Shown here: positions 3,393 through 54,536 of the stretch, piece by piece
How positions within the stretch are numbered: position 1 is the stretch's first letter
How the letters are laid out: each line of letters starts with the position of its first letter
Sequence record: MF327009
Strand: one strand, 5' to 3'
Origin: Shigella phage Sf25
DNA: 64,000 bases
Position numbers and translations under genes: made by a program
Notes under the pieces: model-generated
Seen by the model: only the letters and a program-made list of their open reading frames with translations
The model's database searches: none
What the model was told of the DNA's origin: nothing

Positions 3393-3609
3393 ATTGTTCT
3401 TCCGTTAAAACAGTAATATCGTAGTAACAGTCAGAAGAAGTTTTAACTGTGGAAATTTTATTATCAAAATACTCACGAGTCATTTTATGAGTATAGTATT
3501 TTTTACCATAAATGGTAATAGGCTGTTCTGGTCCTGGAACTTCTAACTCGCTTGGGTTAGGAAGTGTAAAAAGAACGGCACCAGAAGTATCTTTAAATCG
3601 TAAAATCAT
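3346..3609 (-). CDS. Hypothetical protein
   Basis: ORF track 87 aa; stop overlaps neighbouring ORF; start overlaps td stop (ATGA-type coupling). Confidence 0.5.
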
Positions 3610-4466
3610 ATTGCCATTTTCCCTTTAATTGCTGGATGCGATTCATAATTTTCAAGGATAAAATCTTTCGGTTTCATGTATTCAGTTAACCAGTAAAGCT
3701 GTGTTTCGGTGTCACAATTTCCAAACTCTATAGGCCAATCAATTTTAAGTTCACACAGTTCTTTAGGCTCACGACGTAAAATTTCTTTACATTGCTCAGT
3801 ATGATTCATATAGATGTGAGTATTACCACCAGAAAATATCAAATCTCCTGGGATAAGATTACACATCTTAGCCACAATATGCGTCAAGGCAGCGTACGAG
3901 GCAATGTTGAATGGCAAGCCCAAGAAAACATCTACACTTCTTTGGTACCATTGTAAATCAAGATAACCATTACGCACATTAAACTGATAGAACATATGAC
4001 AGGGCGGTAATGCCATTTGATTGATTTCAGCTGGATTCCATGCTGAAACGATTTGACGTCGATCAGTTGGTAATTTTTTAATACGATCAATAGTTTCAAC
4101 TAATTGATCCACACCACCGAAATCACGCCATTGTTTACCGTATATAGGACCAAGTTCACCACTATGATATCCTAGGTCTTTAGCTTGGTTTTCATAATTG
4201 TCATCCCAGATAGTTTTACCTTGAATAAGACTACCGTGAGTAAGAAGACGTAAATCATTAACATTGGTAGAACCGGAAATAAACCATAAAAGCTCAGCAA
4301 TGCATGCATTCCAGGCGAGCTTCTTAGTTGTTACTGCAGGAAAACCTTTGGTTAAATCCCATCGTAATTTAGTACCGAACAAAGCAATTGTTCCTGTGCC
4401 CGTTCGGTCATCGGTTTCATAGCCATTTTCAAAAATGTCTTTAATTAAATCTTGGTATTGTTTCAT
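3606..4466 (-). CDS. td: Thymidylate synthase, uninterrupted (no group I intron)
   Basis: 286 aa; ThyA motifs including the PPCH catalytic-Cys region; contiguous ORF. Confidence 0.93.
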
Positions 4467-4511
4467 TTAGTACCTTATATAAATTATAATACATTTTATG
4501 AAGCTAAATAA

Positions 4512-4859
4512 TCAATACGGTTTAGCATCAAATTTTCTCTCAATTTCAGGTGTGAAATATAATTCTTTACCGCGTTTGGAAAAGCGACCAATAATATGAT
4601 AATTATTCTCATCAAACGTGATATTACCAATATCCATAGCTTTCAACCAAATATCGATATTTCTATCCAGCTTTATATCAAAATTCCAATACGGAGAACT
4701 ATTACCGAAAATACTACAAGCGGATTCAGTGAAACAGCTACTATAAATCTTGTCTTTAGGAACTACTAATTGATAGACACCTTTAATAAACTGAGGACCT
4801 TGCCATTTTGGCTGTTTCTCGTCTTTTTCTAACAGAATAGGGTAATAATTAAAATTCAT
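4512..4859 (-). CDS. Hypothetical protein located between frd and td
   Basis: ORF track 115 aa; no recognisable domain. Confidence 0.5.
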   Translation of the reverse strand: MNFNYYPILLEKDEKQPKWQGPQFIKGVYQLVVPKDKIYSSCFTESACSIFGNSSPYWNFDIKLDRNIDIWLKAMDIGNITFDENNYHIIGRFSKRGKELYFTPEIERKFDAKPY

Positions 4860-4878
4860 ATTTCCGCCACGCGTTATT

Positions 4879-5460
4879 TCATTTATATACTGATTCCGTA
4901 AGGGTTGTTACTTCATCTATTTTATACCAATGAGTTTCAACCATTTCACGCTTGCTTATATCATCAAGAAAACTTGCATCTAATTGAACCGTTGAATTAA
5001 CACGATGCCTTTTAACAATGCGAGAAACAACTACTTCATCCGCATAAGGTAACGCAGCATATAACAGAGCAGGCCCGCCAATTACGCTTACTTTAGAATT
5101 CTGATCAAGCATAGTCTCGAATGATGCGTTAGGGCTTGACACTTGAATTTCGCCGCCAGAAATGTAAGTTATATATTGCTCCCAAGTAATATAGAAATGT
5201 GCTAAATCGCCGTCTTTAGTTACAGGATAATCACGCGCAAGGTCACACACTACAATATGACTACGACCTGGAAGTAATGTAGGCAATGACTGGAACGTTT
5301 TAGCACCCATAATCATAATCGTGCCTTCAGTACGAGCTTTAAAATTCTGGAGGTCCTTTTTAACTCGTCCCCATGGAAGTCCATCACCTAAACCGAATGC
5401 TAATTCATCAAAGCCTTCGACTGTTTTAGTTGGAGAATAGGCGAATACCAATTCAATCAT
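4879..5460 (-). CDS. frd: Dihydrofolate reductase
   Basis: DHFR sequence ...[12 protein letters not shown]...; probable start at internal ATG 5458-5460 (MIELVF...), 193 aa, overlapping the stop of the upstream ORF. Confidence 0.9.
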
Positions 5461-52088: not shown

Positions 52089-52097
52089 ACTTACTCC

Positions 52098-52436
52098 TTA
52101 AAAGAATTTAAATTTTTTCTTTGACCTTTTATTAAATGCATCTTGCAGTTGCATTGTAATACATTTTTCTACATGAGGAGCTAACTCAGCTTTTCTTTCT
52201 TGGTCAAGAACAGCAAAGTCCATTACAACCTTTCCATCAACCCAATCCAGTTTAGTTACATACACTATATGTGTAGAACCATCTTCTAGTTTAATGACAA
52301 TCTCCTGGATAACATTTTCCATAGCGGATTTAATTATCTTAAGAGACTCATTAAAAAGACGTTCTTTTCTTTCTTTTTCCCCCTCCGAAGAGGGGGATTC
52401 ATCGATAATTTCTAAATCTAAATCATCTTTACTCAT
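52098..52436 (-). CDS. 40: Hypothetical acidic protein at the gene 40 position
   Basis: Probable start MSKDDLDLEII with GGAAGAA RBS; position between 41 and uvsX. Confidence 0.5.
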   Translation of the reverse strand: MSKDDLDLEIIDESPSSEGEKERKERLFNESLKIIKSAMENVIQEIVIKLEDGSTHIVYVTKLDWVDGKVVMDFAVLDQERKAELAPHVEKCITMQLQDAFNKRSKKKFKFF

Positions 52437-53610
52437 TAAATTCTTCCATATCACTTAACTGCTCGAGGTCAGTTTCTAAATCAGCTGCTGATTTACTTTT
52501 ACTTTCTGGAGATTTAAATTTTTCAACCTTTGAGTTAATCAATTCATCAACTTCAGCTTCAACAATTTCATTACTATCAATAGCACCTAACTGATAAGCA
52601 CGTTTAATAGCATCTCGGAATGGCTGATGCTTAAATAAAGGACCCCAGAATGTAGTGCAGTTGGTATCTTTTGCACGCCAAGATTTTTCTTCGCGAATCA
52701 TCTCACCGGTTTCTTCGTCAAGAAATTCACGAGCATACCAGCCATTTTTAGGTTTTACCACAAATCCTAATTCAAGAGCCATATCTAACAATCCAGAATA
52801 AGGATCGATGCCACCGTCAAATTTAACATCAATAAAGAATTTACTTTTTTCTTTAACGGTACGAGATTTTTCTACATTTAGAACAAATTGATACCCCTGA
52901 AGATCAGAACCATCTTTAATCTGGCGCTTACCGATAATGAATACAGTATCAGCCGAATACATTACGCCTGTACCACCTGTCATCACGGTTTTACTAAACA
53001 TTTCAATTGTTTCAATTGTATGGTTAACCGCAACACATGGAATATTTTTAATGCTAAAGTAAGGAGTAACAATACGGAATAATGACTTCAGTGATTTAGC
53101 ACGAGTCATATCTGCCACAGATTTTTCATTCAAGGCATCTTCAGTTTCTTTCTTAGAAGCCATATTACCGATTGAGTCGATGAATACAATAACTTTTTCA
53201 CCGCGCTCAATAGCTTCAAGCTGATTCACCATATCAATTTTTAGCTGTTCAACTGACTGAATCGGCGTATGAATTACTCGTTCTGGGTCAACCCCCATGG
53301 ATCGCAAATAAGCTGGAGTAATACCAAATTCGCTATCATAGAATAGACAAACCGCGTCAGGATATTTGTTCAAATATGCCGCAACCATAGTCAAAGACAT
53401 ATTTGATTTAAAGTGTTTAGAAGGCCCTGCGAAAATAGTTAAACCAGACTGCATACCGCCATCAATCGCACCAGAAATAGCAATATTAAGCATTGGAATT
53501 TTTGTACGAATTACATCCTTTTCATTAAAGAATTTAGATGTAGTCAGTTCAGCAGTCATTTTAGAAGTGGAAGCTTTAATCAAACGGGATTTTAAATCTG
53601 CAATAGACAT
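52429..53610 (-). CDS. uvsX: Recombinase UvsX (RecA-like)
   Basis: 393 aa; RecA-fold sequence with Walker A GPSKHFKS. Confidence 0.92.
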   Translation of the reverse strand: MSIADLKSRLIKASTSKMTAELTTSKFFNEKDVIRTKIPMLNIAISGAIDGGMQSGLTIFAGPSKHFKSNMSLTMVAAYLNKYPDAVCLFYDSEFGITPAYLRSMGVDPERVIHTPIQSVEQLKIDMVNQLEAIERGEKVIVFIDSIGNMASKKETEDALNEKSVADMTRAKSLKSLFRIVTPYFSIKNIPCVAVNHTIETIEMFSKTVMTGGTGVMYSADTVFIIGKRQIKDGSDLQGYQFVLNVEKSRTVKEKSKFFIDVKFDGGIDPYSGLLDMALELGFVVKPKNGWYAREFLDEETGEMIREEKSWRAKDTNCTTFWGPLFKHQPFRDAIKRAYQLGAIDSNEIVEAEVDELINSKVEKFKSPESKSKSAADLETDLEQLSDMEEFNE

Positions 53611-53687
53611 TCATTTTTTCCATAGGCATCATTATATTTTCCTCACTGGTTAAAGATAGAGTAATTATAACACAATAAATTTAGGCA

Positions 53688-54536
53688 TTAATCAACTGCT
53701 ATTGGATGAATAGCATTAAACTTATGAAATGCTTCTGATTTTTCTTTACGTGAAACGCACATGCGAAGAACCTTTAATGGTTCGTCTTCTTCACCCAACG
53801 ATTTTCGTTTTTCAATATTAGAAGTTTTCCAACGAGCTTGCTCTGGAAACTCTCTATTGATTTGCTCAAGCGCTCTATTATGTTTAGAATTACTACGAAT
53901 TGAACTGCACCCGCCAGGAGCTTGTGCTTTTCCAGATACAACCAGATATTTGAACAAGGCCAAATGCGGATAACCTTGATTAATTAAATTGAGAAATGCA
54001 TACATATCTTCGCACAAATCAATTTTTCCATACCCAATTTGTTCTGTCGTAAGTTTTCCAAGGTCATACCATGTATTCGTGAATCCATATGAATTTTCAC
54101 GATAATTACCCCAAGATGAAGTAATTTTAAAAATTGGTAGGCGAGCATGACCATGATAATACCCGCAATCCATGGCATCCTCAACGTATTGAATCAATTC
54201 ATAGAACTGTTCACGGGTTAATTGATTGACTTTATCTACACAACGACGGTCATCTCTTTTTCGCATTGAACTCATACGAATAGTAGTATCATCGTCAATC
54301 ATCCAGATTCGTTGACCTGCATACATATCAGTAATTGCTTTACGAGTACCGGCAATTCCGTTTACATCATCAGGAATAGTTATAATTTTAGCTCTAGACC
54401 CATAAGCGTCATAATAAGCTTTTTCTTCATGTTCACGCACTACAATATGGGGTTCATAATCAGTCGGAAACATATCAAGGGCAGAAACTGCCCCGACACG
54501 CTGATAACTTGGAATTACGAATTGAATCATTTCCAC
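53688..54536 (-). CDS. Putative GT-A-fold glycosyltransferase at the beta-gt locus (T2/T6-type beta-alpha-glucosyltransferase-like)
   Basis: 282 aa; DxD-type motif IDDDTT; position between uvsX and gene 42. Confidence 0.55.
   Translation of the reverse strand: MEMIQFVIPSYQRVGAVSALDMFPTDYEPHIVVREHEEKAYYDAYGSRAKIITIPDDVNGIAGTRKAITDMYAGQRIWMIDDDTTIRMSSMRKRDDRRCVDKVNQLTREQFYELIQYVEDAMDCGYYHGHARLPIFKITSSWGNYRENSYGFTNTWYDLGKLTTEQIGYGKIDLCEDMYAFLNLINQGYPHLALFKYLVVSGKAQAPGGCSSIRSNSKHNRALEQINREFPEQARWKTSNIEKRKSLGEEDEPLKVLRMCVSRKEKSEAFHKFNAIHPIAVD

What the first reader, a model, noticed from the sequence alone, without database searches (positions are those of the whole stretch)
3606..54536. T2/T6-type rather than T4-type configuration at several polymorphic loci
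Within the indicated span, td is uninterrupted (no group I intron or intron-encoded endonuclease); topoisomerase gene 39 is a single 606-aa ORF with no gene 60 split or bypass; gene 38 is the glycine-rich adhesin type and gene 37 ends in an intramolecular-chaperone-like domain; a DxD-motif GT-A glycosyltransferase replaces the GT-B beta-gt. No seg/mob homing-endonuclease genes are present (for example between soc and 56). Several nucleotide stretches (t, 62) look nearly identical to T4 as I remember it, so the genome may be a mosaic.
Basis: partly seen in the sequence, partly recalled or inferred. Interest (0 to 1): 0.4.

Follow-up and report, generated by a model that had tools for sequence, protein, structure and literature searches.

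The report
Sf24/T2-like T-even segment, mis-assembled
The window is an ordinary T4-family phage segment in the common non-T4 layout already known from phages T2 and Sf24, but the sequence is a faulty assembly with 17 artificial joins that break many genes.

Summary
The gene-content observation is largely right and already known. The window (nrdB to gene 46) is a Tequatrovirus closest to Shigella phage Sf24. Matched bases: Sf24 94%, T2 84%, T6 81%, T4 79%. td is intron-less, gene 39 is unsplit, gp38 is the glycine-rich adhesin type, and gp37 carries a C-terminal Peptidase_S74 chaperone domain. A TAGT-family beta-alpha-glucosyltransferase replaces T4 beta-gt, and no seg/mob/I-Tev gene is present. 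T4 is the known outlier, so this layout is the norm. 'T2/T6-type' is loose, because the T6 record has the td intron, I-TevI and mobE.

It has 8 tandem duplications (66-249 nt; seven perfect, one 97% identical) and 9 deletions (69-173 nt) that are absent from Sf24, T4, T2 and T6. These fuse genes 33 and 59, split gp37 into three ORFs and gp38 into two, behead t, and disrupt 62, 56, modA, nrdA, rIIA, 42 and 43. Identity to Sf24 switches at these joins. At 14 of 17 joins the last mismatch lies 247-252 nt before the join (P about 3e-11). This fits strain-specific contigs from a mixed sample, limited by a unit of about 250 nt, concatenated without resolving overlaps. Interest is low.

The parts
333..383 (-). 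nrdB-nrdA spacer without mobE or nrdB.1
   Evidence: Window 1-332 and 388 onward align to T4 on either side of a roughly 700-nt block (nrdB.1 plus mobE) that is absent here. tblastn with mobE from T4 and T6 gives no hit.
3606..4466 (-). td, uninterrupted thymidylate synthase (286 aa)
   Evidence: PF00303 full length. No Rfam hit. About 1,020 nt of intron plus I-TevI in T4 and T6 are skipped. 283 of 286 aa match Sf24 and 246 of 286 match T2.
8213..8311 (-). Gene 32-59 spacer without segG
   Evidence: Sf24 and T4 carry segG here. The window aligns collinearly with T2 and T6, which lack it. tblastn with segG is negative.
8312..9136 (-). Artificial fusion ORF: gp33 (lacking its C-terminal end) joined to gp59 (lacking about 37 N-terminal profile positions)
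   Evidence: Pfam finds Trans_coact 1-67/73, then T4_Gp59_N from position 38, then T4_Gp59_C. 170 nt present in Sf24, T4, T2 and T6 are missing at 8811.
16135..19770 (+). Gene 37 broken into three ORFs (16135-18186, 18098-18661, 18637-19770); Peptidase_S74 domain at about 19456-19629
   Evidence: blastp places the pieces at Sf24 gp37 residues 1-680, 728-882 (90% identity) and 916-1287. Pfam gives the S74 hit. 173 nt and 69 nt are missing at 18147 and 18607, and the first is also seen against phage FL12.
19801..20498 (+). Gene 38, T2-type glycine-rich adhesin, split into 19801-19998 and 20007-20498, with its stop codon lost
   Evidence: Gp38_N and GP38 lie in different frames. About 37 residues are missing and the end is fused out of frame into t.
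20470..21100 (+). Holin gene t lacking its first 9 codons and its start codon
   Evidence: Translation compared with Sf24 t. 72 nt are missing at 20470 relative to all references.
32026..33843 (-). Gene 39, unsplit topoisomerase II large subunit (605 aa)
   Evidence: Pfam domains include TOPRIM_C. T4's gene 60, 60.1 and mobA region is absent. The exact protein occurs in 620 blocks of public assemblies.
45202..46308 (-). soc (45202-45447) and gene 56 with no segF between them; gene 56 disrupted by a 244-nt tandem duplication
   Evidence: tblastn with segF is negative. Duplication D4 is 45699-45942 / 45943-46186. The soc-56 spacer is collinear with natural contigs L010, L011 and L014.
53611..53687 (-). 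uvsX to glucosyltransferase spacer without segA
   Evidence: T4 has segA here. tblastn is negative.
53688..54530 (-). beta-glucosyl-HMC-alpha-glucosyltransferase (TAGT family) in place of T4 beta-gt
   Evidence: PF20691 scores 38.9 bits against a cut-off of 27.5. DDD lies at residues 79-81, and 278 of 280 aa match T2. The family is assigned to the GT-A fold in PMC13216743.
1651..2148 (.). Perfect 249-nt tandem duplication inside nrdA (adds 83 aa)
   Evidence: Repeat D2. Absent from Sf24, T4, T2 and T6. The resulting 837-aa protein is not on record.
2916..3271 (.). Perfect 178-nt tandem duplication in nrdA.1
   Evidence: Repeat D7.
6469..6600 (.). 66-nt tandem duplication (97% identical copies) in frd.2
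   Evidence: Repeat D13.
30631..31128 (.). Perfect 249-nt tandem duplication inside rIIA (adds 83 aa)
   Evidence: Repeat D3. Almost all natural contigs fetched have a 725-aa rIIA (L017 has it split) and none has the 808-aa duplicated form. The 808-aa protein is not on record.
42811..43226 (.). Perfect 208-nt tandem duplication over modA.2
   Evidence: Repeat D5. Mismatches to Sf24 lie at exactly -249 and +249.
54767..54994 (.). Perfect 114-nt tandem duplication in gene 42 (adds 38 aa)
   Evidence: Repeat D10.
58837..59130 (.). Perfect 147-nt tandem duplication in gene 43 (adds 49 aa)
   Evidence: Repeat D9.
25631..26626 (.). Two deletion joins: 25631 (136 nt missing, ac/stp region) and about 26607-26625 (109 nt missing, ndd.2a-ndd.4 region)
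   Evidence: Both stretches are present in Sf24, T4, T2 and T6. A clean run of 249 nt ends at 26625.
41991..41991 (.). Deletion join, 156 nt missing inside modA
   Evidence: All references and six natural contigs have full-length modA.
60191..60191 (.). Deletion join, 139 nt missing inside gene 62
   Evidence: A clean run of 248 nt ends at 60190. Identity to Sf24 jumps from 89.5% to 99.9% at the join.

Best explanation
The window is the nrdB-to-gene-46 segment of a Tequatrovirus of the Sf24/T2 kind. The topoisomerase large-subunit gene is unsplit. The spacers nrdB/nrdA, 32/59, soc/56 and uvsX/gt hold no free-standing homing endonuclease gene. The tail-fibre tip is T2-type: gp37 with a self-cleaving C-terminal chaperone domain, plus a separate gp38 adhesin that sets receptor specificity. 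A TAGT-family glucosyltransferase would add a second glucose to alpha-glucosyl-hydroxymethylcytosine, giving gentiobiosyl-HMC DNA.

On top of this ordinary biology, the sequence itself is a mis-joined assembly. It appears to be built from contigs of at least two co-occurring strains. One strain is 99.7-99.9% identical to Sf24 and the other or others are 3-12% diverged. Each strain-specific contig stops about 249 nt beyond its last strain-specific variant, which points to a read length or k-mer of about 250. The contigs seem to have been concatenated in reference order without resolving overlaps or gaps. Overlaps became perfect tandem duplications of at most 249 nt, and gaps became deletions.

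What is shown: the gene content, the joins, their absence from all references, and the 250-nt rule. What is inferred: the assembly history.
For: Relatedness. Sf24 matches 98.2% over 1-25000 and 96.6% over 25001-50000. Tile analysis gives matched fractions of Sf24 0.94, T2 0.84, T6 0.81 and T4 0.79.

Locus typing.

Commonness of the layout. The exact gp39 protein is in 620 blocks of public assemblies. T4 is described as an oddity with 15 homing endonucleases (PMC2988022). The T2/T6-type gp38 is the predominant form (PMC3157838). T4 is unique in having alpha-GT plus beta-GT, whereas T2 and T6 use TAGT (PMC13216743).

Artefact. There are eight tandem duplications of 66-249 nt, seven perfect and one 97% identical. 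The same 17 joins appear against Sf24, T4, T2 and T6, which are collinear with each other, and against FL12. Identity to Sf24 changes exactly at the joins, for example 97.6% to 99.7% at 8811, 99.7% to 88% at 18147, and 89.5% to 99.9% at 60191. Fourteen of 17 joins have a mismatch to Sf24 at -252 to -247, against 11% expected by chance (binomial P 2.7e-11). Ten segment ends show mismatch-free runs of 248-250 nt. The largest duplication is 249 nt and occurs twice.

Natural origin of the segments. Substitutions within segments look natural: 535 synonymous and 131 non-synonymous codon changes against Sf24, similar to T2, T4 and T6 against Sf24. So the pieces are real phage DNA and only the joins are wrong.
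Against: No reads or source record are available. Oligomers spanning the joins and the duplicated NrdA and rIIA proteins are absent from every collection searched, so the assembly history cannot be checked directly. Three joins (18147, 25631, 41991) lack the left-hand 250-nt signature, though 41991 has it at +248. The segment starting at 18147 diverges from Sf24 immediately instead of after 249 nt. Some interior runs identical to Sf24 exceed 250 nt without a break, so the simple two-strain graph model is incomplete. The dda allele has 35 private changes, all synonymous, and its best database hit is 95.6%. That is unusually distant, although gene 39 behaves normally.
Confidence: 0.8

Rival explanations
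1. The duplications and deletions are real. The window would then come from a defective, heavily rearranged T-even genome, for example a non-viable variant or decaying remnant shaped by illegitimate recombination or replication slippage.
For: Seven of the eight duplications are perfect, as recent events would be, and five of the eight are in frame (249, 249, 147, 114 and 66 nt). From background knowledge, tandem duplications in the T4 rII region are known.
Against: Seventeen events in 64 kb hit genes needed for growth: the 33/59 fusion, 37, 38, t, 62, 56 and 43. The nearest-relative identity switches exactly at each event. Fourteen of 17 events lie 247-252 nt after the last mismatch to Sf24 (P 2.7e-11). 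Biology has no reason to produce that spacing. No public contig or protein carries any of these joins.
Confidence: 0.03
2. The window was edited in silico, with duplications and deletions introduced deliberately or by a processing bug, starting from an otherwise intact genome.
For: All event sizes stay below about 250 nt. No source record was found. Seven of the eight duplicated copy pairs are exactly identical.
Against: Random editing would not place joins at a fixed 249-250 nt from the last polymorphism relative to Sf24. It would also not make the closest relative change at each join. An intact single genome would not alternate between stretches about 100% identical to Sf24 and stretches 88-97% identical precisely at the edits.
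Confidence: 0.12
3. The pattern is only a natural recombinational mosaic of T-even lineages, with no artefact.
For: Tequatrovirus genomes are naturally mosaic. Several differences from Sf24 are natural polymorphisms shared with other phages: no segG, a single copy of the gp121/122 paralogue, the mrh.1 length, soc lying next to 56, and the motB.1 region.
Against: Homologous exchange does not create tandem duplications or frame-breaking deletions at the crossover. All four references, FL12 and ten natural contigs are collinear across every join.
Confidence: 0.04
4. The window is T4 or a T4-type genome.
For: Some core stretches are 97-99% identical to T4, including t, 62-44-45 and parts of gene 43.
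Against: T4 is the most distant of the four references overall, with a matched fraction of 0.79. Every T4-specific insertion tested is absent.
Confidence: 0.01

Closest known systems
Shigella phage Sf24 (Tequatrovirus sf24, NC_042078 / MF327008)
   Same: Gene order and content match from nrdB to gene 46. Long blocks are 99.7-100% identical (8811-18146, 45943-54880, 60191-64000). Sf24 shares the same divergent intron-less td allele (283/286 aa), unsplit gene 39, gp37 with a Peptidase_S74 end, adhesin-type gp38, and the TAGT glucosyltransferase (277/280 aa).
   Different: Sf24 has segG between 32 and 59, the extra small ORFs gp113, gp155 and gp156, and a second gp121/122 paralogue. Other window blocks are only 88-97% identical to it. 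Sf24 has none of the 17 duplication or deletion joins, and its genes 33, 59, 37, 38, t, 62, 56 and modA are intact.
Escherichia phage T2 (AP018813)
   Same: Intron-less td, no mobE, no segG, unsplit gene 39, gp38 adhesin, TAGT glucosyltransferase (278/280 aa), and dam present.
   Different: The td protein is only 246/286 identical. Tail-fibre genes 34-37 are 65-90% identical at nucleotide level. The overall matched fraction is 0.84.
Escherichia phage T6 (MH550421)
   Same: Unsplit gene 39, no segG, segF or segA, adhesin-type gp38, and a TAGT glucosyltransferase annotated as ggt.
   Different: T6 has the td group I intron with I-TevI, has mobE between nrdB and nrdA, and lacks dam. Its gp37 has no nucleotide-level similarity beyond the N-terminus, and gp38 is 74% identical.
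Escherichia phage T4 (NC_000866)
   Same: Same backbone gene order. Core replication genes are 95-99% identical.
   Different: In this interval T4 carries mobE, the td intron with I-TevI, segG, the gene 60 split with its 50-nt bypass and mobA, segF, segA, GT-B beta-gt, and a chaperone-type gp38 with an adhesin-bearing gp37. None of these is in the window.

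Membership tests
Genus Tequatrovirus (T-even phages) | High nucleotide identity and collinear gene order with type members | tested here: met
   98.2% and 96.6% identity to Sf24 at 99-100% coverage. Collinear with T4, T2 and T6 apart from known indels and the 17 joins.
Intron-less td allele | A single ORF covering the whole thymidylate synthase profile, with no group I intron and no I-TevI | tested here: met
   PF00303 1-266/266 in one 286-aa ORF. No Rfam hits. tblastn with I-TevI gives E >= 0.35. 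The T4/T6 intron interval is skipped.
Unsplit topoisomerase II large subunit (T2/T6/RB-type gene 39) | ATPase, transducer, Toprim and TOPRIM_C domains in one ORF, with no gene 60 bypass and no mobA | tested here: met
   Pfam domains span residues 48-605. T4's roughly 1.1-kb gene 60, 60.1 and mobA block is replaced by 64 nt. tblastn with mobA and 60.1 is negative.
T2-type long tail fibre tip (gp37 plus gp38 adhesin) | gp38 with an N-terminal attachment domain and a glycine-rich-motif specificity domain | tested here: met
   PF21721 (E 3e-19) and PF05268 (E 3e-42). Poly-Gly motifs are visible in the translation. No T4-type gp38.
T2-type long tail fibre tip (gp37 plus gp38 adhesin) | gp37 C-terminal intramolecular chaperone (Peptidase_S74) domain | tested here: met
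   PF13884 1-58/58, E 8e-16, in the 18637-19770 piece.
T2-type long tail fibre tip (gp37 plus gp38 adhesin) | Intact, translatable genes 37 and 38 | tested here: not met
   gp37 lies in three frames and gp38 in two, with residues missing and the gp38 stop codon lost. This is attributed to assembly joins.
beta-glucosyl-HMC-alpha-glucosyltransferase / TAGT (PF20691) | Profile match above the curated cut-off, and near-identity to the T2 enzyme | tested here: met
   38.9 bits against a 27.5 cut-off. 278/280 aa match T2.
beta-glucosyl-HMC-alpha-glucosyltransferase / TAGT (PF20691) | GT-A fold with an acidic DxD motif | tested here: inconclusive
   DDD is present at residues 79-81, after a predicted beta-strand. 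My single-sequence AlphaFold model is unreliable (pLDDT 39.8), and no PDB relative is found by sequence. PMC13216743 reports a GT-A fold for the T6 TAGT.
Homing-endonuclease-free spacers | No GIY-YIG, HNH or seg/mob ORF in nrdB/nrdA, 32/59, 39, soc/56 or uvsX/gt | tested here: met
   tblastn with nine endonuclease proteins gives no hit below E 0.05. The 20 ORFs scanned with Pfam (the typed genes plus the unassigned ORFs) show no endonuclease domain. Spacers are 51-99 nt.
Mis-joined (chimeric) sequence assembly | Joins absent from all relatives, with exact duplication of the overlap or loss of sequence | tested here: met
   Eight tandem duplications (seven perfect, one 97%) and nine deletions are unique to the window.
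Mis-joined (chimeric) sequence assembly | A change of haplotype at the joins and a fixed technical length scale | tested here: met
   Identity switches at the joins. Terminal clean runs are 248-250 nt, and 14 of 17 joins fit the rule with P 2.7e-11. The maximum duplication is 249 nt, twice.
Mis-joined (chimeric) sequence assembly | Reads do not support the joins | not testable with these tools
   No reads and no source record are available. Oligomers spanning the joins are absent from all three contig collections.

The most novel reading that the evidence does not exclude
The 17 short tandem duplications and deletions are genuine. The window would then record a population of T-even genomes undergoing frequent illegitimate exchange between co-infecting strains, with crossovers displaced by up to 250 nt. 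A more modest reading is that the 18147-18360 piece of gene 37, only 86% identical to anything in the phage collection, marks a new receptor-binding variant.
Probability: 0.03. Interest if true: 0.55.

Novelty: already known. Interest (0 to 1): 0.08.

Why it matters
The reported configuration adds no new biology. It is the standard state of the genus, in which T4 is the exception, and it is already annotated in Sf24 and T2. The practical value is a warning. This sequence should not be used for gene calls, tail-fibre or host-range inference, or recombination analysis until it is reassembled. About a dozen genes are corrupted by joins, and the apparent mosaicism is at least partly chimeric. The 250-nt rule at the joins is a simple, reusable diagnostic for contigs concatenated from mixed-strain samples.

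Tried and rejected
(1) Looking for the source. Exact searches with join-spanning 32-35-mers in viral, genome and metagenome contigs all returned nothing. Exact look-ups of the duplicated NrdA (837 aa) and rIIA (808 aa) proteins found nothing on record. A 38-mer from the divergent gene 37 piece was also absent.

(2) Patchwork of known genomes. I tested whether the segments were copied from database genomes. They were not. The best hits were 94.9% for 30880-41990 and 98.8% for 54881-58983, and 86% and 99.2% for the two tail-fibre pieces.

(3) Synthetic recoding or generation. I considered this because the Dda protein is identical to a common allele while its DNA has 35 private, all-synonymous changes. 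I rejected it as a general explanation. The genome-wide ratio of synonymous to non-synonymous changes (535/131) matches natural pairs. Gene 39 shows ordinary distances and private-site counts.

(4) Fold check of the glucosyltransferase. The single-sequence AlphaFold2 model was too poor to search with (pLDDT 39.8), and there was no PDB sequence relative. I relied on Pfam and the literature instead.

(5) The 335-nt difference at 45499 looked like a join at first. It was reclassified as natural because contigs L010, L011 and L014 are collinear there.

Full report
IDENTITY OF THE WINDOW

Megablast against 50,697 phage records places the window in the genus Tequatrovirus. The best record is Shigella phage Sf24, at 98.2% identity over 1-25000 and 96.6% over 25001-50000, with 99-100% coverage. 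Transferring the Sf24 and T4 annotation shows that the window runs from the 5' part of nrdB to gene 46, in the usual T-even order. I fetched the matching intervals of T4, T2 and T6 and compared 500-nt tiles. The fraction of window bases matched is 0.94 for Sf24, 0.84 for T2, 0.81 for T6 and 0.79 for T4. Sf24 is the best match in 97 of 128 tiles.

- td (3606-4466, minus strand) is a single 286-aa ORF that covers the whole thymidylate synthase profile. Rfam finds nothing in the window at gathering thresholds, so there is no group I intron. Aligned to T4 and T6 td, the window skips about 1,020 nt of intron plus I-TevI.
- Gene 39 (32026-33843) is one 605-aa ORF containing HATPase_c, DNA_gyraseB, Toprim and TOPRIM_C. 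The T4 block holding the gene 60 bypass, 60.1 and mobA is replaced by 64 nt. The exact protein occurs in 620 blocks of public assemblies.
- The ORF at 53688-54530 is a PF20691 TAGT protein with DDD at residues 79-81. It matches the T2 homologue at 278 of 280 residues.
- tblastn with T4 beta-gt, T4 gp38, mobE, I-TevI, I-TevIII, segG, mobA, 60.1, segF and segA finds nothing below E = 0.05. The unassigned ORFs scanned with Pfam have no endonuclease domain.
- gp38 is the adhesin type (Gp38_N plus GP38, with poly-glycine runs). The C-terminal gp37 piece carries a Peptidase_S74 intramolecular chaperone domain.

The gene-content observation is therefore correct.

THIS LAYOUT IS ALREADY KNOWN

[quoted passage not shown] It lists segA (uvsX/beta-gt), segF (soc/56), segG (32/59) and the mobA insertion that splits the topoisomerase gene (PMC2988022). 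The T2/T6-type gp38 is described as the predominant adhesin form (PMC3157838). [quoted passage not shown] The T6 TAGT is predicted to have a GT-A fold (PMC13216743).

The label 'T2/T6-type' is imprecise. The T6 record has the td intron with I-TevI, has mobE, and lacks dam. T2 and especially Sf24 are the right comparators. Sf24 itself has segG, which the window lacks, as T2 and T6 do.

The ORF list already looked wrong. NrdA is 837 aa and rIIA is 808 aa, each 83 aa too long. gp43 is 947 aa. Gene 37 is in several pieces.

Aligning the window to Sf24 shows 17 places where the alignment jumps back or forward by 66-249 nt. The same jumps appear against T4, T2 and T6, which are collinear with each other there. 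One jump was also checked against phage FL12.

Eight of the joins are tandem duplications, seven perfect and one 97% identical:
- 249 nt in nrdA
- 178 nt in nrdA.1
- 66 nt in frd.2 (copies 97% identical)
- 249 nt in rIIA
- 208 nt over modA.2
- 244 nt in gene 56
- 114 nt in gene 42
- 147 nt in gene 43

Nine are deletions:
- 170 nt, fusing gp33 to a truncated gp59. Pfam shows both families in one ORF.
- 173 nt and 69 nt in gene 37
- 104 nt in gene 38
- 72 nt, removing the gene 38 stop codon and the start of t
- 136 nt and 109 nt in the ac-ndd region
- 156 nt in modA
- 139 nt in gene 62

At protein level, gp37 survives as Sf24 residues 1-680, 728-882 and 916-1287, in three frames. gp38 survives as residues 1-65 and about 103-258. 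t lacks its first nine codons. Such a genome could not produce late transcripts, tail fibres or timed lysis.

WHY THIS IS AN ASSEMBLY ARTEFACT

Three lines of evidence point the same way.

First, the closest relative changes exactly at the joins. Blocks 8811-18146, 45943-54880 and 60191-64000 are 99.7-99.9% identical to Sf24. The neighbouring blocks are 88-97% identical.

Second, there is a fixed length scale. At 14 of 17 joins, a mismatch to Sf24 lies 247-252 nt before the join, usually followed by a mismatch-free run to the join. Chance expectation is 11% per join (binomial P = 2.7e-11). Ten segment ends show clean runs of 248-250 nt. Six joins have the mirror signature at +247 to +252. The largest duplication, 249 nt, occurs twice. 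This is expected if strain-specific contigs from a mixed sample can extend only one read length or k-mer (about 250 nt) beyond their last distinguishing variant. It is also expected if the contigs were then concatenated in reference order, so that overlaps become duplications of at most 249 nt and unfilled gaps become deletions.

Third, the DNA within segments is natural. There are 535 synonymous and 131 non-synonymous codon differences from Sf24, a ratio like that of T2, T4 or T6 against Sf24. Gene 39 has ordinary distances to a dozen natural alleles. Natural contigs carrying the identical Dda or gp39 proteins have normal modA (and normal rIIA in all but one, L017, where it is split) and are collinear across the joins in their range.

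Several other differences from Sf24 are genuine polymorphisms shared with other phages. These are the absence of segG, a single gp121/122 paralogue, the mrh.1 length, soc lying next to gene 56, and the motB.1 region.

LIMITS

I could not find the source. Join-spanning oligomers and the duplicated proteins are absent from all collections searched, so the assembly history is an inference. Three joins lack the left-hand signature, and the piece starting at 18147 diverges at once. Deliberate or accidental in-silico editing cannot be fully excluded, but it would not explain the 250-nt rule or the haplotype switches. Real rearrangements are very unlikely for the same reasons and because essential genes are destroyed. 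The GT-A fold was not verified here, because my single-sequence model had a pLDDT of 39.8. That detail rests on Pfam and the cited paper.

VERDICT

The typing is right, but gene integrity and the T6 comparison are wrong. The feature is already known, and the sequence is a chimeric, mis-joined assembly. Interest is low.

Noticed in passing
window 7184-7290, 23852-23958, 26729-26799, 27236-27306, 35667-35732, 47701-47766, 50111-50176, 56438-56544: A family of 64-98-nt intergenic repeats (D1, D6 and D8). Read on the minus strand, they contain GTTTAC...TATA-like hexamers, and some are followed by a GC-rich hairpin. From background knowledge they look like T4-type early promoters with adjacent terminators. 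This was not tested.
   Followed up: no
window 39217-40536 (dda): The Dda protein is identical to a common allele found in 29 blocks of public assemblies. The DNA, however, has 35 private substitutions, all synonymous, against 1-13 for ten other alleles. The best of 574 database records is only 95.6% identical. Gene 39 does not show this pattern.
   Followed up: partly
window 18147-18360 (gene 37 middle piece): This gp37 stretch is only 86% identical to its best phage-collection match (phage FL12) and about 75% to the next. A 38-mer from it is absent from the viral and metagenome contig collections. It may be an unsampled tail-fibre variant from the second strain.
   Followed up: partly
window 19735-19749: A 15-nt in-frame insertion relative to Sf24 and T2 near the end of gene 37. 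It forms a direct repeat of CTTGAATCTAAACTT and adds 5 aa.
   Followed up: no
window 3606-4466 (td): The intron-less td allele, shared with Sf24, is strongly diverged from the others. It is about 84% identical in nucleotides to the T4 and T6 exons, and 246 of 286 aa match T2 td. Whether the I-TevI target site is altered was not examined.
   Followed up: no
window 47133-47795: A 220-aa ORF (186 aa in the Sf24 annotation) lies between dam and gene 61. It is present in Sf24 and T2 but absent from T4 and T6, and has no Pfam match. The Sf24 annotators note a restriction-endonuclease-like CATH superfamily for it.
   Followed up: no
L001 28887-29481 (Sf24) versus window 27790-28119: Sf24 carries two tandem paralogues, gp121 and gp122 (DUF7418). 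The window and T6 have a single copy. This is a natural copy-number polymorphism, unlike the perfect duplications elsewhere in the window.
   Followed up: partly
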